A stretch of 64,000 nt of DNA from an uncultured bacterium (GTDB taxonomy: Bacteria > Abyssobacteria > SURF-5). The stretch lies in contig CAYVQZ010000003.1 in assembly GCA_964453435.1 (NCBI GenBank), positions 24,690 through 88,689 of the forward strand, given 5' to 3'. The notes beneath the pieces were generated by a model. That model saw only the letters and a program-made list of their open reading frames with translations. It did no database searches and had not been told where the DNA came from. The position numbers and the translations under genes are program-made. Within the stretch, counting starts at the first letter, position 1. Each line of letters starts with the position of its first letter. This document shows, one piece after another, positions 34,766 to 64,000 of the stretch.

Positions 34766-34816
34766 GGCTTTGTCCTTTGTTGTATTCGATGAAAGCGGCT
34801 TCGTTCAGCCTTTTGT

Positions 34817-39131: not shown

Positions 39132-41056
39132 ATGTCCTCGCCTTCGCCCTTCAAGAAGAGCGCACCGAGCGGGGGCAGGCTGAGATTCAGGGCATAAGGC
39201 CGTCCGTGGACTTGAACCGGCGCCGCCTCGACTCCTCCCATATTTCCGAAGCCGCTCCCTCCGTACTGCGACGAGTCGCTGTTTAACGCCTCTTTCCAGA
39301 AGCCTCCATGCGGCGCGCCTACCCGGTAATTCTGGCGCGGCACCGGTGTAAAATTCATGACAACAATCACATTATCAGCCGGTGAACGCCCCTTCCTCAG
39401 CAGACTGAGGATGGACTGCTCGGAGTCGTTGCAATCTATCCACTCGAATCCCGCAGGCTCAAAGTCCAATTCGTGGAGCGCCGGCTCGTTTTTGTAAAGG
39501 CTGTTCAAGTCTTCGACCCAGTGTTTCAGTCCCTGATGAGCGGGATAATCCAGCAGGTTCCACTGCAGTCCCTGTTCGTGATACCACTCGTCCCATTGGC
39601 CGAACTCTCCACCCATGAAAAGCAATTTCTTGCCCGGCTGAGAATACATGTATCCGTAAAGTAGTCGCAGGTTCGCAAATTTCTGCCAATCATCGCCCGG
39701 CATCTTTCTCAAGAGAGACCCTTTGCCGTGGACGATCTCATCGTGTGAGAGCGGCAGGACGAAATTTTCGTGGAACGCATACAGCAGGCGGAAAGTCAGC
39801 CGGTTGTGATGGAACTTTCGAAAAACGGGGTCTTTCGACATGTAGTCGAGCGTGTCGTGCATCCACCCCATGTCCCACTTCATGCCGAAGCCTAAACCTC
39901 CGACGTAGGTTGGTGTGGAGACCATCGGCCACGCCGTGGACTCCTCTGCGATGGTCTGGGCCTCGGGAAAGTTTTTGTAGATTTCTTCGTTGAACCGACG
40001 CAGAAACGCTATGGCCTCGAGGTTCTCGTTTCCGCCGTATTTGTTTGGAATCCATTCTCCCTGTCTGCGCGAATAGTCGAGATAAAGCATCGAGGCGACA
40101 GCATCCACGCGGAGGCCGTCGGCATGGTACACATCGAGCCAGAAGAGGGCGCTGCTCAGGAGAAAGCTCTGCACTTCGTCGCGCCCGTAATTGAACACGA
40201 GGCTGTTCCAATCGGGGTGAATGCCTTGTCGGGGGTCGCTGTGTTCATACAGGTGCGTGCCGTCGAAGTAGCCAAGGCCGTGTTCATCGCTCGGGAAATG
40301 AGAAGGCACCCAATCCAGAATCACGCCGATGCCATGCTGGTGAAGGCAATCGATCAGATACATGAAATCCTGGGGGGAGCCATAGCGGCTTGTGGGCGCG
40401 AAGTAACCGAGGCTCTGATATCCCCACGAGCCGTAAAACGGATGTTCCATGACCGGCAGCAATTCCACGTGGGTGTATCCCATGTTCTTCACATACTCCG
40501 CCAGTCTGGGAGCGAGTTCCCGGTAGGAGAGCGACCTGTTTTCCTCCTGGGGCAATCGCATCCATGACCCGACATGAACTTCGTAGGTAGCGAGCGCCGA
40601 ATCGGTCGAATTGTTTCTGCCGCGGTTCTTCATCCATTCTTCATCGCCCCAGGAATAATTCAGGTCCCAGATTATTGAGGCTGTATTGGGGGAAACCTCA
40701 TTGCAGAATGCGAAAGGGTCGGACTTATCGACTCGATAGTTGTTGAATCGTGAGACGATATGATATTTGTATTTTGTTCCGGTGGCGATTGCCGGGATAA
40801 ATCCTTCCCAGATGCCTGAAGCGCCTCGCGCTCGCAATGGATGGCTCGATTTATTCCAATCGTTGAAGTCACCTATGACGGAGACCTTTTCGGCGTTTGG
40901 CGCCCATAGGGCGAACAGGGTTCCTGTCACTTCGTTCTTTTCGCGCATAACGTGCGCGCCCAGTTTATTGTACAGGCGAAAGTGACTGCCCTCGTTGAAC
41001 AGGTATAGGTCGTCCTCCGTCAAGAGGGAAATATCGTATCGCATAAATCCTCCCAT
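39128..41056 (-). CDS. glgB: 1,4-alpha-glucan branching enzyme (GH13_9).
   Basis: [22 protein letters not shown] and [13 protein letters not shown] motifs. Length is 642 aa. There is a 4 nt overlap with treZ. Confidence 0.9.
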
Positions 41057-41102
41057 TTTGTTTGCTCGGTTTGTGAATCCTTTCAGATACTTGTTTCGGC
41101 TA

Positions 41103-44100
41103 TCATCCTTCGGTTTGCAGAAGTTGTTGAATGCCGCGAAGCGGAATCTTCACCCAGTCCGGCCTGTTGTTCAATTCGTAACCGAGCTCATAGATGGATT
41201 TCTCGAGCAGATATGTGTCAAGCAGCATTTTGACCTCCTCCTTCTCGGTGGGAAGGAAACCATCCCGAGCGGCGAAACTCATGTACGACTTGAGAAAGGC
41301 TACGCAAACCCATGCGTGCCAGGCGCCCGCAACATGTTCCAAATATTCGAAATCTTCTTCGCGAAGAATTCCGCTGTCGCGCAGTTGATACAGGGCGGAA
41401 TACGCGGCATAGTGGAACGACCGCAACATGCCGGCGACGTCTCGCAACGGTGAGCGCTTGATTCGGCGTTCGCTCAGAGGGCGCGCGGGCTCTCCCTCGA
41501 AATCGATTATGACAAAATCATTCCCCGTGTACAGCACCTGTCCAAGGTGGTAATCTCCGTGACACCGTATTCGCATAGCCGTTATTTTCTTTTCGAGAAC
41601 CCTTTGAAACCGCTCCAGAATATCTGTCTCGGCCGCCAGAACCGACTGCGCCTCGTCCCGCAGTCCTTCCGGAAGATGCTTCATCCTTCTGCGTAAAAGC
41701 TGACACACTTTTCCGGTAAGGCTGCGAAAGGACTGATAGAGTGACCGTTGATACAACTTTGTAAATGATTCGGGCGCGAAGTCGGAGTCTTCTTTATCCG
41801 TTGCAAGCGCGAGGTGCAGCTCGGCGGTGCGCTGGCCCAAAAGGTAAGCGGACCTCCCGTATGGTCCGACGAGCTCGATGACATTGTCGGACGGGTCCTC
41901 CTGAATGAGGTCCATGAACGCCCGCTCGGGAACATCGAGCTTATCGACTCTGTGGGCCAGGACGTTTTCGAACGTCTGGTTCAGAACGTCTTTGGTGTAT
42001 TCCCAAGCGTCACCCTGGTTTGACACATACCCGTGCAGAATGGCGAGGGTCACAGGTTCGGCCCGTCTTCTCCCGAGTTCGATATGCCCGGCGACCGGCG
42101 GGATGTGCTCGAATTTCTTTTGGGTAAGGAACTTGCCGATCTGAAGGTCGGGATTTATGCCGGGCTCGAGACGCCGGATGAGCTTCAGGATAAGACGCTC
42201 TCCGAAAACAACGGATGTGTTGCTCTGCTCGGCTCTCATGACGGACGGCTCGAGCGGGGATTCGCCGGAACGCAAAATTCGCCGCAGCAGCGGAGTGGAA
42301 GCGGCGACTATTTCTCCTTCTGTGTCCTTCCGGCGGCGGCGCTTCGTTATCGCCTGCAGAAGCGCCTCACAGAATCCTTTGTCCGCCACGGCATCATAGA
42401 GGATTCCACTTGTCTTTCCATCTTTCGTCTCCAGGCGAGCCACGACGGAGAAGGGGGCTTCTTCCATGAGCTTCTCTGCCTGCTCTCCTTCGGCGAACGT
42501 GAGAGGAAGCAGATACGTTTCCGCGTCTCCGTCAAGATAATCGACGTTCAGAAAGACAAAATACGCCGGATGGAGATCTCCCGGCATGGGAAGCGCGTCT
42601 TTGACTGTCACAGCCTTAAGGGGGCGTCCTTTTCCGCCAAACCAGCGGCACACCTGCAGGTAATCGGGCAGGGTCGCCTGGAGCGCGGCCTTTTGTCTGC
42701 CGCGGAACACGGTCTGCCATTCTCCCGCAATGGAAAGAGAGGGCAAGCGGGAAACATATGTGGAGACGTCAATGTTTTCAGTCGCGACACGCTGCGGCCG
42801 CAGCGAGAACCAGTAGAAAGTGTGTGGCCCGAGGGTGAGAAGATACGGCAAATCGCCTATTTGCGGAAACTCCGTTTGACCGAACAGTTCGACGGGAACC
42901 ATGCCTTTGTATGCGTGCAAGTCCAATTCGACGTACTGGACAAACCTCGACAGGTTCGCCACGACAAGAATGCATTCGTCATCATGACAGCGGATGAAGG
43001 CCAATATTTTCCTGTTTTCCGGGTGCAGGAATTCTATGGAGCCCCGTCCGAAGGCCTTGTGTTGCTTTCTCATGGCGATGATGCGTTTCATCCACCAGAG
43101 CAAAGAATGGGGGTTACTCTGCTGCGCTTCGACGTTGATTGCGTCGAAGTGGTATTCGGGTTCAATGATGACGGGCAGATACAATTTCTGCGGACTTGAC
43201 GAGGAGAACCCGGCGTTGCGGTCGGAACTCCACTGCATAGGGGTTCGCACGCCGTTCCGGTCACCGAGGTACACGTTATCTCCCATTCCGATTTCGTCGC
43301 CATAATAGATAACGGGTGTCCCTGGCAGCGAGTAGAGCAACCCGTGCATGATCTCGATTCGTTTGCGGTCATTCCCGAGGAGAGGCGCCAGCCGCCTGCG
43401 GATACCCAGATTGATCCTCATTTGGGAGTCCTGAGCGTAGACCCGGTACATGTAATCGCGTTCCTCATCGGTGACCATTTCCAAAGTGAGTTCATCGTGA
43501 TTGCGCAGAAACAGCGCCCACTGACAAGAATCGGGGATAGCCGGTGTCTGTTCCAGGATGTCGATAATGGGAAAGCGGTCTTCCATACGAAGCGCCATGA
43601 ACAGGCGCGGCATGAGCGGGAAATGAAAAGCCATATGGCATGCATCGTCGTCGCCGAAATAGGCAACGGCGTCTTCCGGCCATTGATTCGCCTCGGCGAG
43701 AATCATTCGGTTTGTAAACCTCTCGTCGACGTGAGCCCGCAGCTTTTTCAGGAAGTCATACGTCTCAGCCAAGTTTTCGCAGTTTGTCCCTTCCCGCTCA
43801 TAGAGATAGGGCACGGCATCCAGCCGCAGGCCGTCCACCCCCGTTTGGAACCAGAAATCAATGACCCGAAGGATTGCCCTCTGCACCTCGGGATTATCGT
43901 AATTCAGGTCTGGCTGGTGAGAATAGAACCGGTGCCAATAGTATGCTTTCGCGACAGGGTCCCACGTCCAGTTCGACGACTCGAAGTCTTTGAAAATGAT
44001 GCGCGCCTCTTTGTAGCGGTCCGGCGTTTCGCTCCACACGTAGAAATCGCGCCAGCGGCTTCCCCTCCTGGCGCGACGGGCCCGCTGATACCACGGATGC

Positions 44101-44456
44101 TGGTCGGAGGTGTGGTTCACGACCAGTTCGGTGATGACACGCAGGCCGCGCCTGTGGGCCTCCCGCAAAAACGCCCTGAAGTCGCGTATTGTTCCATACG
44201 ATGGATGGATCCCCCGATAGTAGGATATGTCATAGCCGTCATCCTTCAAAGGCGACGGGCAGAACGGCAGCAGCCAGATTGCGCCGACACCCAGGTCGTG
44301 AAGGTAGTCAAGTTTTTCGATCAGCCCCTTGAAATCACCTATGCCGTCGCCGTCGCTGTCCCGAAACGCTTTGACATGCAGTTCATAAATCACGCTGTCT
44401 TTGTACCACAGGGGATCGTCTTCCAATGCCGTTAATTCGGCCTTTCGGTCGGCCAT
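41103..44456 (-). CDS. treS: Trehalose synthase (maltose alpha-D-glucosyltransferase) fused to maltokinase (Pep2/Mak).
   Basis: The N-terminal roughly 600 aa matches TreS ([28 protein letters not shown]...[11 protein letters not shown]). The C-terminal roughly 450 aa is aminoglycoside-kinase-like maltokinase. Total length is 1117 aa. Confidence 0.9.
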
Positions 44457-44471
44457 ATCAACTCCTGAGTT

Positions 44472-46529
44472 CTACATGAAATAATCGAAGTCACGCTCGG
44501 TTCGAATCCGCCGCCTCACTTTGAAGATGTGAGCCGGCGCCACTTGGGGATTGACCTCCACGTAATTACTCGAGCCGTACCAGAGGTAGCGCGAATCGCT
44601 CAACAGGTCGTGCACTTGATAGGGTTGATGTAGGTCAAACCCGAAGGAGGAAACAGGGAGTTCGAGCCACCCCGCATGCGTGTGATGGGGGTCCAGATTC
44701 ACGACCACCAGGATAATGTTGGTCAAGTCGTCGGTGTGCTTGCTGTAACATATCAGTTGTTCGCTGTCTATCTCATGAAATTCGAGATTCGCGTCGCTTT
44801 GCAGCGCGATGTTTTCGCGGCGTATCCGGTTCACGCGCCTGATGATTCCCCTGAGACTGTCGGAACGCTCGATGTCCCAGTGCCTGACTTGATACTTTTC
44901 GGAATCCAGATACTCCTCGCTCCCAAACTCGCGGGCCCGGTTCTCGCACAGTTCGAAGGCAGGCCCGTAGACTCCATAATTGGAGCCGAGCGTTGCGGCA
45001 AGTATCAGGCGGGCGATGAAAGCCGGCCGTCCTCCCATCTGGAGATATTCCGTTAGAATATCCGGTGTGTTTGGCCACAGGTTAGGCCGGAAATATTCCC
45101 GCACCCCGGAATCCGAGAGGTGCGTGAAATATTCCATAAGTTCCCACTTCGTATTCCGCCAGGCGAAATACGTGTAGGACTGGCTAAATCCCGACTTGGC
45201 AAGTCGATACATCACCTTGGGGCGGGTGAACGCCTCAGAGAGAAAAACAGTCTCCGGATAGTCTCTTTTCACCCCCTCGATGAGCCATTCCCAAAAAGGA
45301 AGCGGCTTTGTATGTGGATTGTCCACTCGGAAGACACGGATACCTTTATCGATCCAGAAAAGCACGACACTCTTCAGCTCTTCCCAGAGCTCCTTCCAGT
45401 TATCGGTCTCAAAACAGAATGGGTAGATGTCTTCATACTTTTTGGGCGGATTCTCGGCGTACTGAATGGAGCCGTCCGGACGGAGCAGAAACCACTCCGG
45501 ATGCTCTTTTACATAGGGATGGTCCGGGGTACACTGAAACGCAATGTCGATCGCAACCTCGATGCCGTACTCACGGGCTTTGCGCACAAGGCTCACCATG
45601 TCGTTTATGGCGCCGAGTTGGGGATGCACGGCCATGTGTCCTCCTTCGGCGGAGCCAATCGCCCACGGACTACCCGGGTCATCCGGTTCGGCAACCGGCG
45701 CATTATTCTTCCCCTTCCGGTTTGTCTCGCCGATGGGATGTATGGGTGGCAGATAAAGCACATCGAATCCCATTCCCGCAATGTAAGGCAGGCGAGCCTC
45801 GCAATCTTTCAGGGTTCCGTGCGTACCGGGTTCGGGAGCGCAGGACCGCGGAAACATTTCGTACCAGGCGCTGAAACGCGCCCTCTCTCGGTCCACAACC
45901 ACTTGAAGCTCCTTGTACGTCGTCGCGAATGAGATGGCCTGATAGTCTGACATCAGGGATGCCAATTCATCGCTGAAGGCGACCTCCGCAACGCTGTCCG
46001 GCCGGTCGCCAGAGCGCAGCAATCCCGCATATTCGCGGAGCTTGTCCCCGGCTGACCTCGGGGCGCGCAACGCCGCTTGTTCGACCATCTCGGCGCCGAA
46101 AAGGAGATCAACCGAGACTTCGAGGCCGGCTTCGACTTTCTTCTCGAGCCCGCGCCGCCATGTCTTGAATCCGTCAACGCACGCCCGCACCGTGTATACA
46201 TATCTGCCGATATAGGCGACTTCGAAGCAACCACGCCATCGGTCATTCAGCAAAAAATGCATCGGCGTCTCGCTCCAGCTCGAGGCCGATTCCGTTCGGT
46301 AAAGCAGCGAACAGGAAAGAGAGTCGTTGCTGTCCGCAAAAATGTCGGCTTCGACAACCACTTGCTCGCCGACCGCTCGCTTTATGGGAAAACGGCCACA
46401 ATCGATTTCTGGTGTAACTCCCTCTATTACGACACGCTTACGACCTTCTTCCGGCGCCATATCCTCCCTTCCTTTTTTGAATCCGCTTCGACCGGCGCAT
46501 AACGACGATTTCATTGAAGTATAGCACAC
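44472..46529 (-). CDS. glgE: Alpha-1,4-glucan:maltose-1-phosphate maltosyltransferase. The start may be the internal MAPEEG at about 46460.
   Basis: CGRFPIKRAVGE N-domain and LPPIHPIGETNRKGKNN...GSPWAIGS GlgE signature region. Length is 685 aa. Confidence 0.9.
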   Translation of the reverse strand: MCYTSMKSSLCAGRSGFKKGREDMAPEEGRKRVVIEGVTPEIDCGRFPIKRAVGEQVVVEADIFADSNDSLSCSLLYRTESASSWSETPMHFLLNDRWRGCFEVAYIGRYVYTVRACVDGFKTWRRGLEKKVEAGLEVSVDLLFGAEMVEQAALRAPRSAGDKLREYAGLLRSGDRPDSVAEVAFSDELASLMSDYQAISFATTYKELQVVVDRERARFSAWYEMFPRSCAPEPGTHGTLKDCEARLPYIAGMGFDVLYLPPIHPIGETNRKGKNNAPVAEPDDPGSPWAIGSAEGGHMAVHPQLGAINDMVSLVRKAREYGIEVAIDIAFQCTPDHPYVKEHPEWFLLRPDGSIQYAENPPKKYEDIYPFCFETDNWKELWEELKSVVLFWIDKGIRVFRVDNPHTKPLPFWEWLIEGVKRDYPETVFLSEAFTRPKVMYRLAKSGFSQSYTYFAWRNTKWELMEYFTHLSDSGVREYFRPNLWPNTPDILTEYLQMGGRPAFIARLILAATLGSNYGVYGPAFELCENRAREFGSEEYLDSEKYQVRHWDIERSDSLRGIIRRVNRIRRENIALQSDANLEFHEIDSEQLICYSKHTDDLTNIILVVVNLDPHHTHAGWLELPVSSFGFDLHQPYQVHDLLSDSRYLWYGSSNYVEVNPQVAPAHIFKVRRRIRTERDFDYFM

Positions 46530-46641: not shown

Positions 46642-47700
46642 TTATTGAGCGATTTGCCGGAATTCTGCGCGCATCTTCGGCAAACTGTCGGGATAGTTTC
46701 TCTGCACAAACTCGATGAGTTTCTCTCTCACGATGCATCGGAGCTCCCAGGCGCTCGATGAATCCGAGGCGCTCACAAGAGCTCGCAGCTCCACTGTTCT
46801 TTCCGTGCTGTTCGTTACCTGCAGCACGCATACCTTGCCGTCCCACTTGTCCGAGCTTTTCACAATCTGGTGCAACTGCTCCCGTATTTCCCCGGTCGGA
46901 ACGGTATAGTCGACATAAAGAAAAACTGCGCCAAGCAGGTCGGCGGAGACGCGGGTCCAGTTCTGGAACGGTTTTTCGAGAAAATAAGTGATCGGCACGA
47001 CCAAGCGTCTCAGGTCCCAGATGCGAACAACCACATATGTGAGCGTAATTTCCTCGATTCGTCCCCACTCGTTTTCGACTATGACAACGTCATCGATACG
47101 AATGGGACCGGTCATGGCAATCTGAAAGCCGGCCAAAAGCGTCGCGATCGTTCTCTGTGCCGCAAAACCGATGATGATACCCGCAATACCCGCCGAGGCC
47201 AGGATGCTGGTACCCAGTTGCCGGACTTTGTCAAACGTCATCAAGACAACAGCCAAGGCGAGCACTCCTACCACAACCATAACCACTCTTTTCAGCATCT
47301 GAATCTGTGTATGAATTTTCCGGGCTTGAAGATTGTCTTTCACGTCGACCCTGTACTGACTGAGAATGATGTCTTCCCCAACATACGCCAGCTTGATGAT
47401 AAGCCAGGCGACGGAAAGGATCAGGACGACGCTGAACGCCTGGTTGAGAAACACCCCGATGTTGGGAGAAACCGCAACCAGCGGCAGCAAAAGGTGAATG
47501 ACAACAAGGGGGATAATCACTCGCGACGGTGCGCGACAGTGCTTTACGAATGACGTGCCGAGAGTCGACTTGGTTCTTTCCGAAACTGTCCGAAAAATTT
47601 TGAAAATAACATAGTGGGCTATCAACCCCAAAACGACTGCCACACCGAGAATAACGACCGGTCGTAACAACTCTTCCCAATCCAAGAGCAGGTCTTTCAT
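46642..47700 (-). CDS. mscS: Small-conductance mechanosensitive channel (MscS family).
   Basis: The pore-lining helix region IIIGFAAQRTIATLLAGFQIAMTG is followed by the beta-domain DDVVIVENEWGRIEEITLTYVVVRIWD. Confidence 0.8.
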   Translation of the reverse strand: MKDLLLDWEELLRPVVILGVAVVLGLIAHYVIFKIFRTVSERTKSTLGTSFVKHCRAPSRVIIPLVVIHLLLPLVAVSPNIGVFLNQAFSVVLILSVAWLIIKLAYVGEDIILSQYRVDVKDNLQARKIHTQIQMLKRVVMVVVGVLALAVVLMTFDKVRQLGTSILASAGIAGIIIGFAAQRTIATLLAGFQIAMTGPIRIDDVVIVENEWGRIEEITLTYVVVRIWDLRRLVVPITYFLEKPFQNWTRVSADLLGAVFLYVDYTVPTGEIREQLHQIVKSSDKWDGKVCVLQVTNSTERTVELRALVSASDSSSAWELRCIVREKLIEFVQRNYPDSLPKMRAEFRQIAQ

Positions 47701-48132: not shown

Positions 48133-49425
48133 ATGAAGGCCGCATTGCGAGACGAAAACACCGCCTGTGATTGCGTTGCGGATTTCCTGTCGGCTGTGAA
48201 AATGCTTTCGAAGAAGACATACGACCTGGTTCTCACCGAGCTGAGCCTTCCGGACAGGGCCGGGCAAGAACTTGTCAAGTTGATAGCCGAGAAAAGCCCT
48301 TCCACTCAGATTCTTGTTGTCACATCTTCCGGCGATTCCCGTAAAGTCAGCGAATGCATGGAAATAGGGGCCTTCAATTATCTGCGCAAACCCTTCAAGC
48401 CCGGTCAGCTTCGGTTTCTGGCCAAGACGGCCTTCGACACGCAGCCGCCGAAAAGCGAAAACCTGTTTCTCGAGGGAAGGGAGGCCTTCAGCCAAACAGA
48501 CAACCTGGTTGGGAGAAGCCGGGCCATGCAGAAGGTATACGGACAGATACGCCTTGCGGCGAGCACCGATATTGATGTCCTCCTCACCGGGGAAAGCGGT
48601 ACGGGCAAAGAACTTGTGGCCCGCTCCATTCACCGCGAGAGCAAGCGGTGTGAGGGACCATTCATCGCGGTGAACACGGGCGCCATCGAGTCCAACCTGA
48701 TTTCCAGCGAACTGTTCGGACATGTGAGAGGCGCGTTCACCGGCGCCAGGAACACCCGGAAGGGAATGTTCGAGATGGCGCATGGCGGCACCCTGTTTCT
48801 CGATGAACTCAGCACAATGGACGAACAGACCCAGATAAGCCTTCTTCGCGTATTGGATAACAAGGTGATCACTCGCGTCGGCGGCTCCAAACCAATAAAG
48901 GTGGATGTGCGGATAATAGCCGCCTCAAATGCAATTCTGGAACAAGAGGTTGAATCCGCCCGTTTTCGGGAGGATGTGTATCATCGCCTGAACGTATTCA
49001 CGGTCCACATGCCGCCTCTGCGCAAGCGCACATCCGACATCAAGATTCTTGCCGCCGTCTTCGTCGACCAGTTTTCCCGCGAATTCAATAAGAATATCCG
49101 GGGCATTTCAGAAGAGGCGCTCGCGCTTCTGGAAAATTACGCGTGGCCCGGCAATGTGCGAGAATTGAAAAACTCGATTCAACGGGCTGTGTTGTTGGCT
49201 GAGAGCGATATGATCATTCCGTCCGTGCTGCCGGACCGGTTGCACAGGAAACGTGATGTCTCAACAGGGGTTGCGCTGAAAGTCGGGATGACATTGGAAG
49301 AGGCGGAGCGCGCTCTGATTGCGGCAACGCTTTCGCACGTGAACGGGAACAAGAAGAAGGCTTCGGAGATTTTGGGGATAAGCCGCAAGTGCATGTATAA
49401 CAAGATTAGCAAGTACGCCCTTTGA
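48133..49425 (+). CDS. Sigma-54-dependent transcriptional activator (NtrC-family enhancer-binding protein) with an atypical, N-terminally ambiguous receiver domain.
   Basis: AAA+ domain with GESGTGKE Walker A and the GAFTGA motif. C-terminal Fis-type HTH (ASEILGISRKCMYNKI). Receiver residues are encoded upstream of the annotated ATG, see findings. Confidence 0.85.
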   Translation: MKAALRDENTACDCVADFLSAVKMLSKKTYDLVLTELSLPDRAGQELVKLIAEKSPSTQILVVTSSGDSRKVSECMEIGAFNYLRKPFKPGQLRFLAKTAFDTQPPKSENLFLEGREAFSQTDNLVGRSRAMQKVYGQIRLAASTDIDVLLTGESGTGKELVARSIHRESKRCEGPFIAVNTGAIESNLISSELFGHVRGAFTGARNTRKGMFEMAHGGTLFLDELSTMDEQTQISLLRVLDNKVITRVGGSKPIKVDVRIIAASNAILEQEVESARFREDVYHRLNVFTVHMPPLRKRTSDIKILAAVFVDQFSREFNKNIRGISEEALALLENYAWPGNVRELKNSIQRAVLLAESDMIIPSVLPDRLHRKRDVSTGVALKVGMTLEEAERALIAATLSHVNGNKKKASEILGISRKCMYNKISKYAL

Positions 49426-57985: not shown

Positions 57986-59523
57986 CCGAGTATTTCGAGT
58001 TTTTTCTATCCCGTTCGCCGGAAATCGCCTGGCTCACGGTCGAGCACATACGGATAACCCTGGTCTCGGTGGCGCTGGCGGTGCTGCTCGGCGTGCCGAC
58101 CGGAATCATCCTCGTGAGAATCCGGCGGCTGGCCACGCCTGTCATTGGGGCGACGAGCGTAATCCAGACGATTCCGAGCCTCGCCCTTCTCGGTTTCATG
58201 ATTCCCTTGCTCGGAATCGGCGTCAAACCGGCCATCGTGGCGCTGTTTCTTTACGCTCTGCTGCCAATAGTCAGAAACACATATACGGGGGTCGACCAGG
58301 TGGACCCGGCGCTGATAGAGGCCGGCATCGGGATGGGAATGACGAACCGTCAAATGCTGCGGAGGGTGCAAATTCCGCTTTCATTGCCCGTGATAATGGC
58401 GGGAGTCAGAACCTCGACAGTCATCAATGTGGGCGTAGCCACGCTGTGCGCGCTCATCGGCGCCGGCGGGCTTGGCGAGCTTATCTTCCGCGGAATCGCG
58501 ATGGTGAACAGCCAGATGATTATTGCGGGAGCCCTGCCGGCCGCCCTCTTGGCGCTCGTTTTCGACGGAGTACTCGGACTCATCGAGAAAGGGCTCATGG
58601 CGAGGAAACGCTTTTCGCCGAAGCTCCTGGCGGGTGTCGGTTTCTCGAGCTTGCTCTTCCTCGCGGCTCTTATCCCGTCCGAGTACGCGAAAAAAGATGC
58701 GCGGAAAATCACAATCGGGTCCAAGGAATTCACCGAACAAATTATCCTGGGTGAGATCATGGCCCAGTTGATTGAATCAAACACCGACGTGTCCGTGACC
58801 AGAAAGTTCGGACTGGGCGGCACTATGGTCTGTTTCAACGCCTTGACAAATGGCGACATCGACGTGTATCCCGAATACACCGGCACCGGCTTGACGGCGA
58901 TCCTGGCCCGGCAGGCAATCTCGGACCCGAAAGAGGTGTTTCGTATCGTAAGCGAGGAGTTCGAGCGCGAATACAACCTGGTCTGGCTGAGTCCGTTCGG
59001 TTTTAACAACACGTATGCGCTCGCCATGAGAGAACAACACGCCGAAAAGCTCGGAATCGAGAAAATAAGCGATTTGGCCGGGCATGGGCAAAGACTGCGG
59101 CCGGGCTTCACCCAGGAATTCCTCGAACGGCCCGACGGGTATCCGGGCCTCAGGCGGCATTACGGTCTGGCCTTCGCCCGCGAACCCAAGGGAATGGACC
59201 CCGGAATCATGTATATCGCGCTCAGGGAAAGAGATGTCGATCTTATTTGTGCATTCGCCACGGACGGGCGCATTCCGGCTTTCAACTTGCGGGTTCTCGA
59301 GGATGACAAGCACTATTTTCCTCCGTATTATGCAGCCCCCCTCGTGCGCGGGGAGACGCTTGCTCGCATCCCCGAACTGAGCGGCGTTTTGGGCAAGCTG
59401 GCCGGCCTCATCGACGACGCAAAGATGGCCGAACTGAATTATGAGGTGGACGAGCAGGGACGGTCGCCCGAGGCGGTCGCTTCCGCCTTTCTCCAAGAGG
59501 CGGGGTTGACCACAAACGGATGA
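57982..59523 (+). CDS. Fused ABC permease plus substrate-binding protein (OpuCB-OpuCC-like) for quaternary ammonium compatible solutes.
   Basis: The N-terminal roughly 210 aa is a BPD-type permease with the EAA loop IEAGIGMGMTNRQMLRRVQIPLSLP. The C-terminal roughly 300 aa is an OpuAC-type binding domain (DIDVYPEYTGTG). Confidence 0.85.
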   Translation: MTEYFEFFLSRSPEIAWLTVEHIRITLVSVALAVLLGVPTGIILVRIRRLATPVIGATSVIQTIPSLALLGFMIPLLGIGVKPAIVALFLYALLPIVRNTYTGVDQVDPALIEAGIGMGMTNRQMLRRVQIPLSLPVIMAGVRTSTVINVGVATLCALIGAGGLGELIFRGIAMVNSQMIIAGALPAALLALVFDGVLGLIEKGLMARKRFSPKLLAGVGFSSLLFLAALIPSEYAKKDARKITIGSKEFTEQIILGEIMAQLIESNTDVSVTRKFGLGGTMVCFNALTNGDIDVYPEYTGTGLTAILARQAISDPKEVFRIVSEEFEREYNLVWLSPFGFNNTYALAMREQHAEKLGIEKISDLAGHGQRLRPGFTQEFLERPDGYPGLRRHYGLAFAREPKGMDPGIMYIALRERDVDLICAFATDGRIPAFNLRVLEDDKHYFPPYYAAPLVRGETLARIPELSGVLGKLAGLIDDAKMAELNYEVDEQGRSPEAVASAFLQEAGLTTNG

Positions 59524-59560
59524 ACGGTGAACGTACTTTGCAGACGGAAAGGAGTTGCAG

Positions 59561-61051
59561 ATGAGCGGCATCATAGCGATATATGGTCCCGACGCGGAGA
59601 ACGAGAAGGAACTCGCCGAAGAAATGCTTTCGAGAATAAGGCATCGCGGGCCGAGTTTCGCCAATATCTTTTCTGACACCGGCGTAATCCTGGGTTTTGT
59701 GGGAAAAGGAACGCCTTCGGAATCCTCCGGTTTGCCGTATCGGGACAAGAACGGCTCTCAGGCGGTTACATGTGACGCCGAGATATACAATGCCGACACG
59801 CTTCTGTCGGCCTCGCAAACGGATGCGTCCTTCGAAGCCAACAGCGCACGGGCAATCGTGAATGCGTATAAGCAGGACGGCGAAACCTTTGTGAGGAATC
59901 TCGACGGCCAGTTCAGTTTCGTCCTTTTCGACAACGGCGACCTTGTCGCGGCGCGGGACCCTCTCGGTGTCATTCCCCTTTATACTGCTGAACGAGACGG
60001 ACTGAAATTATTCTCATCGGAACTGAAATGCCTGAGCGGGCTGGCATCGAACATACAAGAATTTCCCCCGGGAAGGCTATTCCATTCCCGGTCGGGTTTC
60101 CGCCGATATTGCAGCCTGGAGCCGGAAATCTCGGAGAATCAATCCGTTGATTCGCTGTGCGCACAATTGAGGGAGTTGCTCGAGGTTGCGGTTCGAAAGC
60201 GGCTGGAGTGCTGCGACAAGAAAAAAGGAGTGTTCTTGAGCGGAGGGGTGGACAGCAGCGTTATCGCGGCGGTGGTGAGCAAGTTCCTGCCGGGAGTCGA
60301 TTCCTTCACCGTCGGCATGGAGAACGGCGAAGATGTTCCGAATGCCCGACTCGTGGCAAAGCATTTGGGGACGAATTCCCATGTACATATTTTTGAGATC
60401 GCTGAGGTTCTCGAAGTCCTTCCGAAGGTACTATATCACCTCGAATCGTTCGACGCGCCGCTGGTGCGCAGCGCGACCGCAAACTACATAGCGAGTGGTA
60501 TGGCGTCACAGGTTGTCGACACGATATTAATCGGGGAAGGCGGAGATGAGAACTTCGGAGGGTACCATCATGTGAAAAGGTTCAAATCGCCCGAAGAACA
60601 GCAGAAAGAGTTCATAAACCTTATGTTGGCTCTTCACAACATGGGCTTCATGAGAACCGACCGAATGAACTGGGCGCATTCCTTAAATGTGAGAGCACCG
60701 TTTTTCGACTCGGCGGTCGTGAACCTGGCCATGAGCATTCATCCCAAGCTGAAACTGTACGGTGATGAACAAATCGAGAAATGGATTTTGCGGAAAGCGT
60801 TCGAAGACTATCTTCCCGAGGAGGTCGTCTGGCGTCCCAAGAAGCAGTTTGCGCGCGGCTCCGGCTCCGATGACCTTCTCACGCGACATGCGGAAAGCGA
60901 AATCAGCGATTCGGACTTCGACAATGGCAAAAGACGTTACCCCGACATCGAGTTCCGCTGGAAAGAGGAATGGTGGTACTTCACGATTTTCAGGGAGCGC
61001 TTCGGCGACGACCCCTCAACGCTGTCCACGGTGGGCCGCTGGTACGAGTAG
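59561..61051 (+). CDS. Asparagine synthetase (glutamine-hydrolysing)-like amidotransferase, paralog 1, with Ser instead of the catalytic Cys at position 1.
   Basis: The start is ATG at 59561, with GGAG 6 nt upstream. The ORF track's TTG at 59555 is rejected. The protein begins MSGIIAIYG, where class II GATases begin MCG. Asn-synthetase PP-loop is SGGVDSS. Confidence 0.8.
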   Translation: MSGIIAIYGPDAENEKELAEEMLSRIRHRGPSFANIFSDTGVILGFVGKGTPSESSGLPYRDKNGSQAVTCDAEIYNADTLLSASQTDASFEANSARAIVNAYKQDGETFVRNLDGQFSFVLFDNGDLVAARDPLGVIPLYTAERDGLKLFSSELKCLSGLASNIQEFPPGRLFHSRSGFRRYCSLEPEISENQSVDSLCAQLRELLEVAVRKRLECCDKKKGVFLSGGVDSSVIAAVVSKFLPGVDSFTVGMENGEDVPNARLVAKHLGTNSHVHIFEIAEVLEVLPKVLYHLESFDAPLVRSATANYIASGMASQVVDTILIGEGGDENFGGYHHVKRFKSPEEQQKEFINLMLALHNMGFMRTDRMNWAHSLNVRAPFFDSAVVNLAMSIHPKLKLYGDEQIEKWILRKAFEDYLPEEVVWRPKKQFARGSGSDDLLTRHAESEISDSDFDNGKRRYPDIEFRWKEEWWYFTIFRERFGDDPSTLSTVGRWYE

Positions 61052-61204
61052 CATGTGGCCGGTGGGCGCAGCATGAGTGGCAACGAGAGTGTTCAAATCG
61101 TCGCGACAAGAATTCATCATAATCACGAATCATAAATACGGCAGGCCGCGCCGACAGTTGACGGAGGGGCCCGCAGTTCGCCGATTGGAAAGGAGCATCG
61201 AACA

Positions 61205-62686
61205 GTGTGTGGAATAGCAGGAGTATGGGGCGAAGAGAATCCTTATCTTGTCCGGAAAATGTTGTCGAAGCTCACGCACCGGGGCCCGGACGATGAGGGA
61301 ATACATTGCGACCACAACATCACGCTCGGGCACACCCGGTTGTCGATTATCGATGTTCAGAGGGGACGCCAGCCCTTGTTCAACGAAGACAAGAGTATCG
61401 TTCTGGTCTGCAACGGCGAGATATACAATCACAATGCCCTCCGCAACGAATTGGCGCACCACACGTTTCAAACGCGCAGCGACTCCGAAGTGATACTCCA
61501 CCTGTACGAGGACCTGGGTCCCGCGTGCGTTGAAAAACTGGACGGCATGTTCAGTTTCGTGCTCTGCGACGGCGCCGACATGATGGTTGCGCGCGATCCT
61601 CTCGGCATCAAGCCGCTCTACTACAGCGAGCATCTCGGCCGGTGGTATTTCGCTTCGGAAATCAAGGCTGTGATGGGGCTTGTCGAGGATATTGCGGAAT
61701 TCCCGAACGGTCACTATTACTATTCTCCTTCCGGTTTCCACAGGTACTATTCATTGCCGCGCCACCCACCGAAAATCGCCGATGTCGATGAGGCCGTTGT
61801 CGGCGTGAGAAAACTGTTTGAGAAGGCGGTCGTCAAGCGACTCATGGCGGATGTTCCGCTGGGAGTCTTGCTGAGCGGCGGATTAGACAGCAGCCTGGTG
61901 AGCGCCGTCGCCTCGAAACACAAGAAGAATATGAATTCTTTCAGCGTAGGCGTTGAAGGAAGCGCCGACATCGAGGCCGCCCGGCTCATGGCCGACTTTC
62001 TGGATGTCAACCATCATGAATATGTCTACACGATAGACGAGATGCTCGATATCCTGCCGACCGTCATCTATTATCTCGAATCGTACGACGCGCCGCTGGT
62101 GCGAAGCGCGATACCCACGTATTTCGTGTCGAGACTCGCGCGTCGGTATGTGAAGGTCATTCTCAGCGGCGAGGGCTCGGACGAACTGTTCAGCGGATAC
62201 CACTATTACAAGAAGTGTCCGGAAGATTTGCTTCATGACGAACTCGTGCGGAGCGTTGACGGTTTGCACAATATCAATCTGCAGCGCCTGGACCGCCTGT
62301 CCATGGCTCACTCGCTAGAAGCGCGCGTGCCGTTTCTCGACATCGACTTCGTGGAATATGCGTTGCAGCTCAGCGCTTCCTTGAAGATCGACCGGCAAAC
62401 CGGTACCGAGAAATGGATTCTGAGAAAAGCCTTCGAGGGGGTGCTTCCCGATGAGATCGTGTGGAGAGTGAAGACACAATTCGCGAAGGGCTGCGGCTCC
62501 GCCGGGCTGATTGAAAATCATGTGGAAAACCTTATTTCTGACAGGGAATACCGGGAAACGCTCGAGATGGACCCGCATTGCCGCGCGCGTTCCAAGGAAG
62601 AGTTGTTCTACTACCGAATGTTCAAGGAACACTTCGGCAACGAAAGTGTGGTAAAATCGGTCGGCCGTTGGGAAGAGATTTATTAG
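61205..62686 (+). CDS. Asparagine synthetase (glutamine-hydrolysing)-like amidotransferase, paralog 2, with canonical Cys1.
   Basis: GTG start giving MCGIAGVWG. PP-loop is SGGLDSS. GGAG lies 9 nt upstream. Confidence 0.85.
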   Translation: MCGIAGVWGEENPYLVRKMLSKLTHRGPDDEGIHCDHNITLGHTRLSIIDVQRGRQPLFNEDKSIVLVCNGEIYNHNALRNELAHHTFQTRSDSEVILHLYEDLGPACVEKLDGMFSFVLCDGADMMVARDPLGIKPLYYSEHLGRWYFASEIKAVMGLVEDIAEFPNGHYYYSPSGFHRYYSLPRHPPKIADVDEAVVGVRKLFEKAVVKRLMADVPLGVLLSGGLDSSLVSAVASKHKKNMNSFSVGVEGSADIEAARLMADFLDVNHHEYVYTIDEMLDILPTVIYYLESYDAPLVRSAIPTYFVSRLARRYVKVILSGEGSDELFSGYHYYKKCPEDLLHDELVRSVDGLHNINLQRLDRLSMAHSLEARVPFLDIDFVEYALQLSASLKIDRQTGTEKWILRKAFEGVLPDEIVWRVKTQFAKGCGSAGLIENHVENLISDREYRETLEMDPHCRARSKEELFYYRMFKEHFGNESVVKSVGRWEEIY

Positions 62687-62738
62687 CTTTTAACATGGCC
62701 TTTCGAGCGGATGTCCGCACCCCGAATGATAGACGTCA

Positions 62739-63638
62739 GTGATTGAATCTCACATTATGGCTTACATCGTCATTGTATCCGCTGTCGGCGTCATCGTGAT
62801 TTGGTGGCTGCGCCGAACCATAACCATGGTCGAGGAGCAGCGGCGGAAGCGACTGCAAACGCTGAATCGCTTCGACGCAGCCGTGCACACGGAATCTCCG
62901 CATGAGAATCCCCTCATCCAGGCGCGCAAGCTGGCGCTCGAAAGCCTCAGCAGCCGCTTCAGTATTCTCAGGCGTTTGCTCATTCCGGCGGTCTTCCTGC
63001 TCTGGCTCGTCGCGCTCGCTTACCCCTTCCTCGGGAACGTGCCTGCAAACGTCGTGTCGCTCATGGTGGCGGCCGCCACGGTGATCGTCGGTATCGCCGC
63101 GAAACCCTATGTCGAGAATCTTATCTCCGGAATCGTCATATCGTTTTCGCGCCTTGTGCGCATCGGCGACACCCTGCTGATTGATGGCAATTATGGAACC
63201 GTCGAAGACATCACCATCACGCACACGCTCGTGAAGATATGGGACTGGAGACGGTACATCATTCCGAACTCGCGCATGCTCGAAAAAGAATTCATCAATT
63301 ACTCCATCGTCGACACATACCAGTGGGCGTACGTCGAGTTCTGGGTGGATCATGACGCGGACATCGAGCGGGTCCGGGAGATTGCCGTACGGGCCGCGTC
63401 CTCGAGCGACCATTTCGCAAATTATGAGGCTCCCCGGTTCTGGCTCATGGAGATGGGCAAAGAGGGAATAAAGTGCTGGGTGGCGGCATGGGCGCAATCG
63501 CCCGCAGACGCCTGGCTGCTCAAAAACGAGATTCGCACCGAACTGGTTCGAGAATTGGCACAGGCCGGAATTCGGACCCATACCTATCGGATAGATGGCT
63601 TGGAGGCTTTGAAGGACACTATGGAACCGCGGAAGTGA
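62739..63638 (+). CDS. MscS-family mechanosensitive channel paralog, a shorter form.
   Basis: IVGIAAKPYVENLISGIVISFSRLVRIGDTLLIDGNYGTVEDITITHTLVKIWD is homologous to the pore and beta-domain of the channel at 46642-47700. Confidence 0.7.
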   Translation: MIESHIMAYIVIVSAVGVIVIWWLRRTITMVEEQRRKRLQTLNRFDAAVHTESPHENPLIQARKLALESLSSRFSILRRLLIPAVFLLWLVALAYPFLGNVPANVVSLMVAAATVIVGIAAKPYVENLISGIVISFSRLVRIGDTLLIDGNYGTVEDITITHTLVKIWDWRRYIIPNSRMLEKEFINYSIVDTYQWAYVEFWVDHDADIERVREIAVRAASSSDHFANYEAPRFWLMEMGKEGIKCWVAAWAQSPADAWLLKNEIRTELVRELAQAGIRTHTYRIDGLEALKDTMEPRK

Positions 63639-63639
63639 C

Positions 63640-63860: not shown

Positions 63861-64000
63861 CGCAGGACATGGAATTATCGGACGGACTCACCGTGCGGGT
63901 TTTCCGATTCCATTCACGGCCTTCGGCAAAGGCGTCCTTTTCCCCGGATGAGAGCGATACAGAAGAGCGCGGCGCAGATTCATCTGGCCGTTCTCTTTTT

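What the first reader, a model, noticed from the sequence alone, without database searches (positions are those of the whole stretch)
59561..62686. Tandem AsnB-like amidotransferases, one with Ser replacing the Ntn Cys, following the osmolyte transporter
The first copy starts MSGII. The ATG at 59561 is supported by an RBS, and the track's TTG start is rejected. It therefore lacks the glutamine-hydrolysing Cys1, whereas the second copy, with a GTG start giving MCGIAG, is canonical. Both keep the synthetase PP-loop. Duplicated AsnB homologs next to a compatible-solute importer suggest amidation of an acidic osmolyte or betaine-pathway intermediate. AsnO in N-acetylglutaminylglutamine amide synthesis is an analogy. 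The Ser1 paralog would be ammonia-dependent or a non-catalytic partner.
Basis: partly seen in the sequence, partly recalled or inferred. Interest (0 to 1): 0.55.

Follow-up and report, generated by a model that had tools for sequence, protein, structure and literature searches.

The report
Cys-less asparagine synthetase in methyl-osmolyte operon
Two neighbouring asparagine-synthetase genes, one of an old family that has lost its glutamine-splitting site, turn out to be standard parts of a widespread, undescribed operon that most likely makes (or possibly breaks down) a methylated, amide-bearing salt-protection compound.

Summary
Window 59561-61051 encodes a 496-aa AsnB homologue starting MSGII, and 61205-62686 (GTG start) encodes a canonical MCGIAG AsnB. 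They are 42% identical.

Ser1 is not a miscall. The other glutaminase residues are also replaced, a 98%-identical variant from another sample reads the same, and the protein belongs to a monophyletic Cys-less family (98/100 bootstrap). All 31 members have N74D and a small residue at position 384, and all keep the adenylation residues.

The context is larger than "next to an importer". Scans starting from AsnB, from MttB2 and from the methyltransferase all recover one operon in many anaerobic phyla: MetH-activation domain, MttB1, pterin methyltransferase, MttB2, corrinoid protein, 420-aa SAM methyltransferase, Cys-less AsnB and/or AsnB, and an Opu ABC importer.

Marine cyanobacteria and Scalindua carry a reduced module of AsnB, the methyltransferase and Opu. 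Some operons also hold MetK and AhcY. The window copy lies between trehalose genes and two MscS channels.

Best reading (about 0.45): biosynthesis of an N-methylated asparagine-type osmolyte, with the Cys-less enzyme using free ammonia. The main rival is catabolism of an imported methylated amine. The AsnO/NAGGN analogy is not supported.

The parts
59561..61051 (+). AsnB' : Cys-less (Ser1), glutaminase-dead AsnB-family amide synthetase, 496 aa
   Evidence: Pfam Asn_synthase+GATase_7. Below the AsnB equivalog cut-off (417<499). C1S, R49G, N74D, G75A, D98S. SGGVDSS, E348, D351, E352, Y357, R387, K429 and K449 are kept. D384-equivalent is Gly. AF2 pLDDT 85.7 with a folded N-domain.
61205..62686 (+). 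canonical short-type glutamine-dependent asparagine synthetase B, GTG start, MCGIAG, 493 aa
   Evidence: NF006949 603 bits (cut-off 499). All glutaminase and synthetase residues present. RBS AAGGAG 9 nt upstream of the GTG.
55532..56803 (+). 420-aa class I SAM-dependent methyltransferase-like protein ('MT-like'), the constant partner of AsnB/AsnB'
   Evidence: Methyltransf_25/31. AF2 pLDDT 87.8. Fold neighbours are amine N-methyltransferases (GSMT, GNMT, CcbJ, NmbA, MtfA, CypM). Adjacent to AsnB-family genes in anaerobes, cyanobacteria and Scalindua.
56819..57985 (+). Opu-type ABC ATPase with CBS domains
   Evidence: TIGR01186 proV subfamily, 380 bits > 327.
57982..59523 (+). fused permease + OpuAC-type substrate-binding protein (OpuC/OpuF-like quaternary-amine importer)
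   Evidence: closest solved relatives are Thermoanaerobacter OpuBC (iNicSnFR scaffold), Lmo1422, OpuCC, EgtUC and ProX.
54003..55535 (+). MttB2: non-Pyl MttB-superfamily protein of an uncharacterised subfamily
   Evidence: PF06253. MtgB glycine-betaine residues Y97/R312/H348/F356 are replaced by S/Y/Y(C)/T(N) in about 23-102 orthologues.
53185..53994 (+). pterin-binding (methyl-THF:corrinoid) methyltransferase
   Evidence: PF00809 Pterin_bind; conserved position in the operon.
51688..53184 (+). MttB1: non-Pyl MttB-superfamily protein; MtgB 2QNE is its best solved-structure match (E=3e-81) but it lacks the MtgB binding residues
   Evidence: Y97->G/T, R312->Y, H348->D, F356->A/C.
50964..51599 (+). 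MetH activation-domain-like protein (Met_synt_B12)
   Evidence: conserved at the operon start in most loci.
50281..50967 (+). corrinoid (B12-binding) protein
   Evidence: PF02607+PF02310.
62757..63638 (+). MscS-type mechanosensitive channel directly downstream
48133..49425 (+). sigma-54-dependent response-regulator activator upstream of the operon
   Evidence: a sigma-54 activator also follows AsnB' in L002.
46642..47700 (-). second MscS-like channel
30470..46529 (-). trehalose/alpha-glucan gene block (MalQ, TreY, GH57, TreZ, GlgB, TreS-Mak, GlgE): osmoadaptation context

Best explanation
Copy 2 is an ordinary glutamine-dependent asparagine synthetase.

Copy 1 (AsnB') belongs to an old, monophyletic AsnB sister family. 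That family has lost glutamine hydrolysis but keeps the complete ATP/aspartyl-adenylate site. It most likely makes the carboxamide of aspartate, or of an N-methylated aspartate, from free ammonium.

Both genes are pathway enzymes of a conserved operon rather than stray housekeeping genes. The operon combines amide formation (AsnB'/AsnB), a SAM-dependent amine N-methyltransferase-like enzyme, a corrinoid/methyl-THF methyl-handling module (two novel MttB paralogues, corrinoid protein, pterin methyltransferase, MetH-type activation domain) and an Opu importer.

The most likely role is synthesis, with recapture, of an N-methylated asparagine-type compatible solute, for example asparagine betaine. 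AsnB/AsnB' provide a dedicated amide supply. The methyltransferase installs N-methyl groups. The corrinoid module either recycles homocysteine and methyl groups for the SAM cycle or carries out the first N-methylations directly from methyl-THF.

Shown: gene anatomy, residue patterns, phylogeny and synteny. Inferred: substrate, product and direction of the pathway.
For: AsnB' residues. All 31 Cys-less sequences keep SGGxDS, D279, E348, D351, E352, Y357, R387, K429 and K449. All lack Cys1 and R49. Residue roles are taken from PMC6748925.

Only two positions switch to a new conserved residue: N74 to D (31/31) and position 384 to G/A (31/31). Position 384 is Asp-400 of the human amino-group pocket.

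Phylogeny and fold. Monophyly has 98/100 bootstrap support. The N-domain is still folded but less constrained than the C-domain.

Synteny from three independent starting points:
- From AsnB, about 28 of 80 genome loci carry MttB-type or corrinoid-protein genes nearby, and 15 have a Cys1 plus Cys-less tandem.
- From MttB2, 22 of 37 informative metagenome loci have an AsnB-family gene within 1.5 kb after the methyltransferase, often 17-53 bp away, and most are the Cys-less type.
- From the methyltransferase, Scalindua, Nodularia and Leptolyngbya carry AsnB, methyltransferase and Opu ABC.

Evidence for a biosynthetic direction:
- MetK and AhcY lie inside or next to the operon in L171 and L117. 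Betaine-synthesis clusters show the same feature (PMC7824335).
- Fold neighbours of the methyltransferase are amine N-methyltransferases, including GSMT.
- The reduced module occurs in aerobes without any MttB.
- The taxa involved are marine or halotolerant.
- The window operon lies between trehalose genes and two MscS channels, and L171 lies beside TrkAH and MscS.
- Both MttB subfamilies lack the aromatic pair and the Arg that bind quaternary acidic amines in MtgB.
Against: - No product is known. No paper in the searched library mentions asparagine betaine or a similar compound.
- Nodularia spumigena, which carries the reduced module, accumulated only sucrose in the laboratory (PMC3610870).
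- Every characterised MttB-superfamily enzyme is catabolic.
- It would be unusual for an importer of quaternary amines plus two MttB proteins to serve biosynthesis.
- Canonical AsnB features do not prove that the asparagine made feeds the methyltransferase.
- The thermodynamic argument for methyl-THF-driven N-methylation rests on values I recall, not on a computation done here.
Confidence: 0.45

Rival explanations
1. Catabolic methylotrophy. The Opu system imports a methylated amine. AsnB'/AsnB, and perhaps the methyltransferase, first derivatise it or an intermediate by amidating a carboxylate. MttB1 and MttB2 then pass its methyl groups through the corrinoid protein and pterin methyltransferase to THF for energy and carbon.
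For: - All characterised MttB members demethylate substrates.
- A pre-derivatisation precedent exists: phosphocholine is the substrate of MthB (choline pathway paper listed).
- Both MttB subfamilies replace the carboxylate-binding Arg312 with Tyr, which would fit a non-acidic, for example amidated, substrate.
- RACo-type activases occur in some loci.
- A CN_hydrolase lies inside the operon in L005.
Against: - It does not explain a SAM-consuming methyltransferase, or MetK/AhcY, inside a demethylation operon.
- It does not explain the MttB-free AsnB, methyltransferase and Opu module in cyanobacteria and Scalindua.
- The aromatic cation-pi pair for quaternary nitrogen is also missing.
- AsnB' keeps the aspartate-type amino pocket.
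Confidence: 0.27
2. Plain nitrogen metabolism. The pair are two isozymes of housekeeping asparagine synthesis, glutamine-dependent AsnB and an ammonia-dependent derivative that plays the role of AsnA. They are co-located with the methyl-amine operon only because that pathway releases or needs nitrogen.
For: - Copy 2 passes the AsnB equivalog cut-off.
- The AsnB' synthetase site is nearly identical to that of AsnB.
- Either type can occur alone in the operon.
- Ammonium-rich anoxic habitats would favour an ammonia-dependent form.
Against: - Gene order is conserved across many phyla, with 17-53 bp spacing after the methyltransferase.
- The link to the same methyltransferase and Opu genes persists in cyanobacteria and anammox bacteria.
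- The conserved change at position 384 in the amino pocket argues for functional coupling and an altered substrate.
Confidence: 0.15
3. NAGGN-like dipeptide-amide osmolyte synthesis, with the AsnB homologues acting like AsnO.
For: Only the general idea that AsnB-family enzymes amidate osmolytes. There is a weak TIGR03104 hit.
Against: TIGR03104 scores are 144 and 275 against a cut-off of 570. The operon partners found in the window and related loci are different genes, and none is an Ngg-type partner.
Confidence: 0.02
4. Sequencing or assembly error, or a decaying pseudogene copy.
For: None beyond the unusual Ser1.
Against: The sequence is identical in independent assemblies. A 98% variant has the same start. 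The family is monophyletic with invariant synthetase residues. The reading frame is intact and the model is confident.
Confidence: 0.01

Closest known systems
Asparagine synthetase B (E. coli AsnB, human ASNS; NCBIfam NF006949 / TIGR01536)
   Same: Two-domain architecture, PP-loop, E348/D351/E352 amino pocket, R387, K429 and K449. Copy 2 is a full member. E. coli AsnB (1CT9) is the best solved-structure match of copy 1, E=2e-68.
   Different: Copy 1 lacks Cys1 and R49, has N74D, has lost E398 (human Glu-414) and has Gly at position 384. It scores below the AsnB equivalog cut-off. It cannot hydrolyse glutamine by the Ntn mechanism.
AsnA (ammonia-dependent asparagine synthetase)
   Same: Probable working analogy: asparagine-type amide formation from free ammonia alongside a glutamine-dependent AsnB.
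   Different: Unrelated fold (class II aaRS-like). This is an analogy only, with no homology. Basis: established knowledge.
Cys-less AsnB-like enzymes: beta-lactam synthetase, CarA, lasso-peptide cyclases
   Same: AsnB scaffold with a dead glutaminase domain that uses adenylation chemistry.
   Different: Much more distant: 1JGT E=1e-22, 1Q15 E=1e-17, NF033535 142 bits against a cut-off of 525. Those enzymes cyclise intramolecularly and lack the AsnB amino pocket. There is no natural-product context here.
AsnO / NAGGN amidotransferase (TIGR03104)
   Same: An AsnB-family enzyme that amidates an osmolyte.
   Different: Scores lie far below the cut-off and the partner genes are different ones.
Glycine-betaine biosynthesis clusters GMT-DMT-MAT-SAHase(-MTHFR) of Halorhodospira and Ectothiorhodospira
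   Same: A SAM N-methyltransferase clustered with MetK/AhcY and methyl-THF-linked genes, in halophiles, with betaine transporters (PMC7824335; L171 and L117).
   Different: The methyltransferase is a different 420-aa family. An asparagine synthetase pair and MttB/corrinoid modules are present. The product is presumably not glycine betaine.
MtgBCA / MtgBCD glycine-betaine:corrinoid:THF methyltransferase systems and split methionine synthase
   Same: MttB-superfamily TIM barrel, corrinoid protein and pterin methyltransferase. A bidirectional pterin methyltransferase and a link to methionine synthesis are documented (PMC12478193).
   Different: Neither MttB keeps Y97, R312, H348 or F356 of MtgB. 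There are two paralogues per operon. No homocysteine-binding PF02574 module is present in the window.

Membership tests
Asparagine synthetase B, glutamine-hydrolysing (copy 2, 61205-62686) | N-terminal Cys1 nucleophile after Met removal | tested here: met
   GTG-TGT start, MCGIAG.
Asparagine synthetase B, glutamine-hydrolysing (copy 2) | Glutamine-site residues R49, N74, G75, E76, D98, plus PP-loop, E348, D351, K449 | tested here: met
   Residue table.
Asparagine synthetase B, glutamine-hydrolysing (copy 2) | Score above the curated equivalog cut-off | tested here: met
   NF006949 603.1 > 499; TIGR01536 461.7 > 267.1.
Asparagine synthetase B, glutamine-hydrolysing (copy 2) | Catalyses Asp + Gln + ATP -> Asn | not testable with these tools
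   Needs an enzyme assay.
Asparagine synthetase B, glutamine-hydrolysing (copy 1, 59561-61051) | N-terminal Cys1 nucleophile | tested here: not met
   Ser1. S/A/G/K/T in all 31 relatives.
Asparagine synthetase B, glutamine-hydrolysing (copy 1) | Glutamine-binding and oxyanion residues R49, N74, G75, D98 | tested here: not met
   G, D, A, S.
Asparagine synthetase B, glutamine-hydrolysing (copy 1) | Synthetase site: SGGxDS, E348, D351, E352, R387, K429, K449 | tested here: met
   All conserved.
Asparagine synthetase B, glutamine-hydrolysing (copy 1) | Score above the AsnB equivalog cut-off | tested here: not met
   NF006949 416.7 < 499. The broader TIGR01536 model passes narrowly, 287.1 > 267.1.
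AsnO / NAGGN amidotransferase (TIGR03104) | Score above cut-off and an adjacent Ngg-type partner | tested here: not met
   143.6 and 275 against 570. The flanking genes are the OpuC/OpuF importer and MscS, not an Ngg-type partner.
Lasso-peptide cyclase / beta-lactam synthetase / CarA | Family-model score or close similarity; natural-product cluster context | tested here: not met
   NF033535 142 < 525; NF033561 54 < 300. PDB 1JGT and 1Q15 are only distant. The context is methyl-transfer and Opu genes.
MtgB glycine betaine:corrinoid methyltransferase (for MttB1 and MttB2) | Glycine-betaine-binding residues Y97, R312, H348, F356 | tested here: not met
   MttB1 has G/T, Y, D, A/C. MttB2 has S, Y, Y/C, T/N (residues from PMC13080624).
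MttB superfamily (PF06253), non-pyrrolysine branch | Pfam domain and an uninterrupted ORF without in-frame TAG | tested here: met
   PF06253 is 191 bits for MttB2. MttB1 matches MtgB 2QNE at E=3e-81.
OpuC/OpuF-type quaternary-amine ABC importer | OpuAC substrate-binding domain fused to a permease; CBS-containing ATPase | tested here: met
CpcM phycobiliprotein asparagine methyltransferase (for the 420-aa methyltransferase) | Universal presence in phycobilisome-containing cyanobacteria | tested here: inconclusive
   The architecture resembles Sll0487 (402 aa, PF13649 at 58-155). However, cyanobacterial homologues are patchy, marine or halotolerant, and up to 62% identical to Scalindua proteins. 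No CpcM sequence was available for direct comparison.

The most novel reading that the evidence does not exclude
The operon is a SAM-sparing biosynthetic route to a so far undescribed compatible solute, N-methylated asparagine or asparagine betaine. Two MttB-superfamily enzymes would run in the synthetic direction, methylating a primary and then a secondary amine from methyl-THF through a corrinoid protein. The 420-aa SAM enzyme would perform only the final quaternisation. A glutaminase-less AsnB family would supply the amide from free ammonium, possibly acting on N-methylated aspartate.
Probability: 0.15. Interest if true: 0.85.

Novelty: new variant of a known kind. Interest (0 to 1): 0.66.

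Why it matters
It matters for four reasons.

- It defines a widespread family of asparagine-synthetase relatives that have given up glutamine hydrolysis but keep the adenylation chemistry. Only two positions switch to a new conserved residue (N74D and a small residue at 384), and both are directly testable.
- It ties two uncharacterised MttB subfamilies, which are abundant in marine, saline and sediment metagenomes, to a defined partner set: a SAM methyltransferase, AsnB'/AsnB and Opu. MttB paralogues are numerous in anaerobes and most have no known substrate.
- If the biosynthetic reading is right, there is an unrecognised nitrogen-rich methylated osmolyte in marine cyanobacteria (Crocosphaera, Nodularia, Rivularia, Coleofasciculus), anammox bacteria and many sediment anaerobes. 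That would bear on marine methylated-amine and methane-precursor budgets.
- If the catabolic reading is right, it reveals a new derivatise-then-demethylate route.

Tried and rejected
1. Miscall or pseudogene. Rejected on the basis of independent assemblies, a 98% variant and a conserved family.
2. Recent tandem duplication. Rejected: copy 1 never groups with copy 2 (0/100), and all Cys-less sequences are monophyletic (98/100).
3. AsnO/NAGGN, lasso cyclase, beta-lactam synthetase. Rejected on model scores and context.
4. MttB1/MttB2 as MtgB orthologues, which would make this a glycine-betaine demethylation operon. Rejected at the residue level.
5. The 420-aa methyltransferase as CpcM. Considered because of similar size and domain layout. 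Judged unlikely from its patchy, marine and HGT-like distribution, but not tested directly.
6. A riboswitch, T-box or terminator in the 153-bp spacer between the two genes. No Rfam hit was found in the scanned operon region (47000-64000) other than a sub-threshold PYLIS_3 match inside MttB1. No convincing same-strand terminator was found.
7. Sigma-54 promoter search. The motif count is no higher than chance (21 found, 26.7 expected). One well-placed candidate lies at 49705-49720.
8. Literature. No paper links MttB with asparagine synthetase in a meaningful way, names asparagine or aspartate betaine, mentions cce_2878, or describes an AsnB plus methyltransferase osmolyte cluster.
9. Contexts of four stand-alone Cys-less homologues (L015, L039, L053, L087). 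These were uninformative, except that L087 again lies directly after an Opu ABC system.
10. An AsnB/AsnB' heterodimer could not be tested because no multimer prediction was available. It is not required, since AsnB' often occurs without AsnB.


Full report
**1. The observation**

For the first, GGAG at 59551-59554 lies 6 nt before ATG 59561 and directly abuts TTG 59555. All close homologues begin MSG, MGG or MAG, so the ATG start and Ser at position 1 are correct. For the second, AAGGAG lies 9 nt before GTG 61205, which is followed by TGT, giving fMet-Cys-Gly-Ile-Ala-Gly.

Both proteins carry Pfam Asn_synthase plus GATase_7. They are 42% identical over their full length, E=1e-127. Copy 2 exceeds the NCBIfam AsnB equivalog cut-off (603 against 499). 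Copy 1 does not (417), although it narrowly passes the broader TIGR01536 model.

**2. Ser1 is real and is part of a complete loss of the glutaminase site**

I aligned the proteins to E. coli AsnB (1CT9). Residue roles come from the human ASNS structure paper (PMC6748925).

- In copy 1, C1 is S, R49 is G, N74 is D, G75 is A and D98 is S. The conserved interdomain Glu (E398 in E. coli, Glu-414 in human) is N.
- The PP-loop, D279, E348, D351, E352, Y357, R387, K429 and K449 are all kept.
- The identical protein is on three contigs from NCBI and Logan assemblies.
- A 98%-identical variant from another sample also starts MSGII.
- An AlphaFold model (pLDDT 85.7) folds the N-domain confidently. The only low-confidence stretch within the two domains is 51-55, the former glutamine-binding loop.

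**3. A family, not an accident**

Twelve relatives at 46-100% identity all lack Cys1. In 15 further genomes a Cys1 AsnB sits next to a second paralogue that also lacks Cys1. Four stand-alone Cys-less homologues were also found.

In an NJ tree all 31 Cys-less sequences are monophyletic in 98 of 100 bootstraps. Copy 1 never groups with copy 2. The split is therefore ancient.

Comparing the 31 Cys-less sequences with 26 Cys1 short AsnBs gives the following:

- Only two positions change to a new conserved residue. N74 becomes D in 31/31. Position 384 becomes G or A in 31/31. Position 384 is Asn in the short AsnBs and Asp in E. coli and human enzymes, where it is part of the pocket for the substrate amino group.
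- H47, R49, I52, D54 and E398 simply lose constraint.

The ratio of N-domain to C-domain identity is 0.71-0.81 in the Cys-less family and 0.92 in canonical AsnBs. The reading is a functional adenylating amide synthetase that cannot use glutamine. Its former glutamine pocket is now more acidic, and it has more room beside the substrate amino group.

**4. The context is a conserved operon**

The window genes, in order, are:

| Window coordinates | Gene product |
|---|---|
| 50281-50967 | corrinoid protein |
| 50964-51599 | MetH-activation-domain protein |
| 51688-53184 | MttB1 |
| 53185-53994 | pterin methyltransferase |
| 54003-55535 | MttB2 |
| 55532-56803 | 420-aa SAM methyltransferase-like protein |
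| 56819-57985 | Opu ATPase |
| 57982-59523 | Opu permease-SBP fusion |
| 59561-61051 | AsnB' |
| 61205-62686 | AsnB |
| 62757-63638 | MscS |

These assignments rest. The same set surrounds the closest AsnB' relatives in other lineages.

Three independent scans recover the association:

- **From AsnB.** A scan of species-representative genomes with the AsnB' profile returned 80 AsnB-family loci. About 28 carry MttB-type or corrinoid-protein genes within 10 kb (the full MttB1-pterin-MttB2-corrinoid set in about half of them). These come from Spirochaetota, Desulfobacterota, Chloroflexota, Planctomycetota, Nitrospirota, Lentisphaerota and Bacillota.
- **From MttB2.** An unbiased scan of metagenome contigs returned 80 loci with the order MetSynB12-MttB1-PterinB-MttB2-CoP-methyltransferase. 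Of 37 loci with at least 1.8 kb after the methyltransferase, 22 have an AsnB-family gene starting within 1.5 kb, often 17-53 bp away. Twenty-eight have one somewhere in the locus. The Cys-less type is the commoner partner.
- **From the methyltransferase.** Scalindua rubra, Nodularia spumigena CCY9414 and Leptolyngbya PCC 7375 show Cys1 AsnB, methyltransferase and Opu ABC with no MttB. Crocosphaera, Cyanothece, Coleofasciculus and Leptolyngbya add a 650-aa tandem glutaminase.

**5. The partners**

*The methyltransferase.* Sources name it only as a class I SAM-dependent methyltransferase. Its model (pLDDT 87.8) has as fold neighbours glycine-sarcosine N-methyltransferase, GNMT, CcbJ, NmbA, MtfA and CypM. 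These are amine N-methyltransferases, though the matches are weak. Its cyanobacterial homologues are patchy and marine or halotolerant, and up to 62% identical to Scalindua proteins.

*MttB1 and MttB2.* Both are non-pyrrolysine MttB-superfamily proteins. Neither keeps the glycine-betaine-binding residues of MtgB. Y97 and F356 form the cation-pi pair. R312 and H348 bind the carboxylate, and R312 is reported as conserved in all characterised members (PMC13080624).

- MttB1 orthologues have G/T, Y, D and A/C at these positions.
- MttB2 orthologues have S, Y, Y/C and T/N.
- Both subfamilies share newly conserved Asp, His, Tyr and His residues, and MttB2 adds two Cys residues. What these residues bind is unexplained; a metal site is possible.

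*The substrate-binding domain.* It is closest to OpuBC, OpuCC, EgtUC and ProX proteins, which bind trimethylammonium compounds.

**6. Direction of the pathway**

Several observations point to biosynthesis:

- MetK and AhcY lie inside or next to the operon in L171 (...methyltransferase-AsnB-AsnB'-MetK-AhcY-TrkH-TrkA, with an MscS upstream) and in L117 (methyltransferase-AhcY-MetK-AsnB'). Halorhodospira and Ectothiorhodospira betaine-synthesis clusters likewise include MAT, SAHase and MTHFR (PMC7824335).
- The reduced module exists in aerobes without any MttB.
- The window operon lies between a trehalose/alpha-glucan block (MalQ, TreY, GH57, TreZ, GlgB, TreS-Mak, GlgE) plus an MscS-like gene on one side and a second MscS on the other.
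- The operon carries three of the four MetH modules. A shared corrinoid and bidirectional pterin methyltransferase serving both methionine synthesis and betaine demethylation has a precedent (PMC12478193).

From my own recollection of standard free energies (not computed here), transferring a methyl group from methyl-THF to a primary or secondary amine is favourable, whereas forming a quaternary amine is not. That would fit two corrinoid-dependent steps followed by one SAM-dependent step. The alternative is that the corrinoid module regenerates methionine for the SAM cycle.

Against biosynthesis:

- No such compound is described.
- Nodularia made only sucrose in culture.
- Every characterised MttB enzyme is catabolic.

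**7. Verdict**

The anatomical claims are secure. Functionally, I put about 0.45 on a biosynthetic methylated-amide osmolyte operon, with AsnB' as an ammonia-dependent asparagine-type synthetase that possibly accepts N-methylated aspartate. I put about 0.27 on catabolism of an imported methylated amine with prior amidation, about 0.15 on plain asparagine isozymes, and very little on NAGGN-like chemistry or artefact.

The glutaminase-dead, probably ammonia-dependent copy and the link to osmolyte or betaine metabolism stand. The AsnO analogy does not, and the true unit is a much larger conserved operon. I found no description of this operon or of the Cys-less family in the searchable literature.

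Noticed in passing
window 30470-46529 (- strand): A contiguous trehalose/alpha-glucan gene block: MalQ (GH77), TreY-like, GH57/DUF3536, TreZ-like, GlgB, TreS-maltokinase fusion and GlgE. It lies directly upstream of the operon region and adds to the impression of an osmoadaptation island.
   Followed up: partly
window 46642-47700 (-) and 62757-63638 (+): Two MscS-type mechanosensitive channel genes bracket the methyl-transfer/AsnB operon. A BON-MscS gene and TrkH/TrkA also flank the operon in L171.
   Followed up: partly
window 48133-49425 (+) and 49705-49720 (+): A sigma-54-dependent response-regulator activator lies just upstream. A -24/-12-like motif, TGGCGC-N5-GTGCA, sits about 100 bp before the first small ORF (49818-50180, no Pfam hit). 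The motif count in the window is not above chance, so this is only a positional hint.
   Followed up: partly
window 52687-52786 (+), inside MttB1: A sub-threshold Rfam hit to PYLIS_3, the mttB pyrrolysine insertion element (33.9 bits against a gathering score of 38), in a gene with no in-frame TAG. It probably reflects residual coding-sequence homology to Pyl-type mttB.
   Followed up: no
MttB1 51688-53184 and MttB2 54003-55535; orthologues in L003-L167: Both MttB subfamilies share newly conserved residues where MtgB has H149, C163, R312 and L347: D166/D180, H180/H194, Y329/Y344 and H364/H379. MttB2 also has invariant C233 and C332. This could be a metal site or a new substrate pocket. It is unexplained.
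   Followed up: partly
L013, L017, L023, L031, L032, L170 (also L011, about 8 kb from AsnB, no methyltransferase seen in the locus): A 650-aa protein with two tandem glutaminase (PF04960) domains sits between or beside AsnB and the methyltransferase in Crocosphaera, Cyanothece, Coleofasciculus and Leptolyngbya.
   Followed up: partly
L005 15389-16237: A CN_hydrolase (nitrilase-superfamily amidase) gene lies inside the operon of a Deltaproteobacteria MAG that has AsnB' but no Cys1 AsnB nearby. It could be a stand-alone ammonia-supplying glutaminase or an amidase.
   Followed up: no
L002 6371-8957 (- strand): In the Hydrogenedentota relative, OpuAC and AsnB' sit next to a homocysteine S-methyltransferase domain protein (PF02574), a Met_synt_B12 protein and a URO-D (MtaA-like) methyltransferase. 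This is another link to methionine and methyl cycling.
   Followed up: no
window 3803-6058 (-), 9452-11692, 11874-14135, 14226-16625 (+): Four paralogous proteins of about 750-800 aa, each with a C-terminal sulfatase/phosphodiesterase domain (LtaS-like architecture), lie among glycosyltransferase genes. This looks like a cell-envelope cluster unrelated to the finding.
   Followed up: no
window 25340-26833 (+): A B12-binding radical SAM protein. A similar gene lies at the edge of related locus L003.
   Followed up: no
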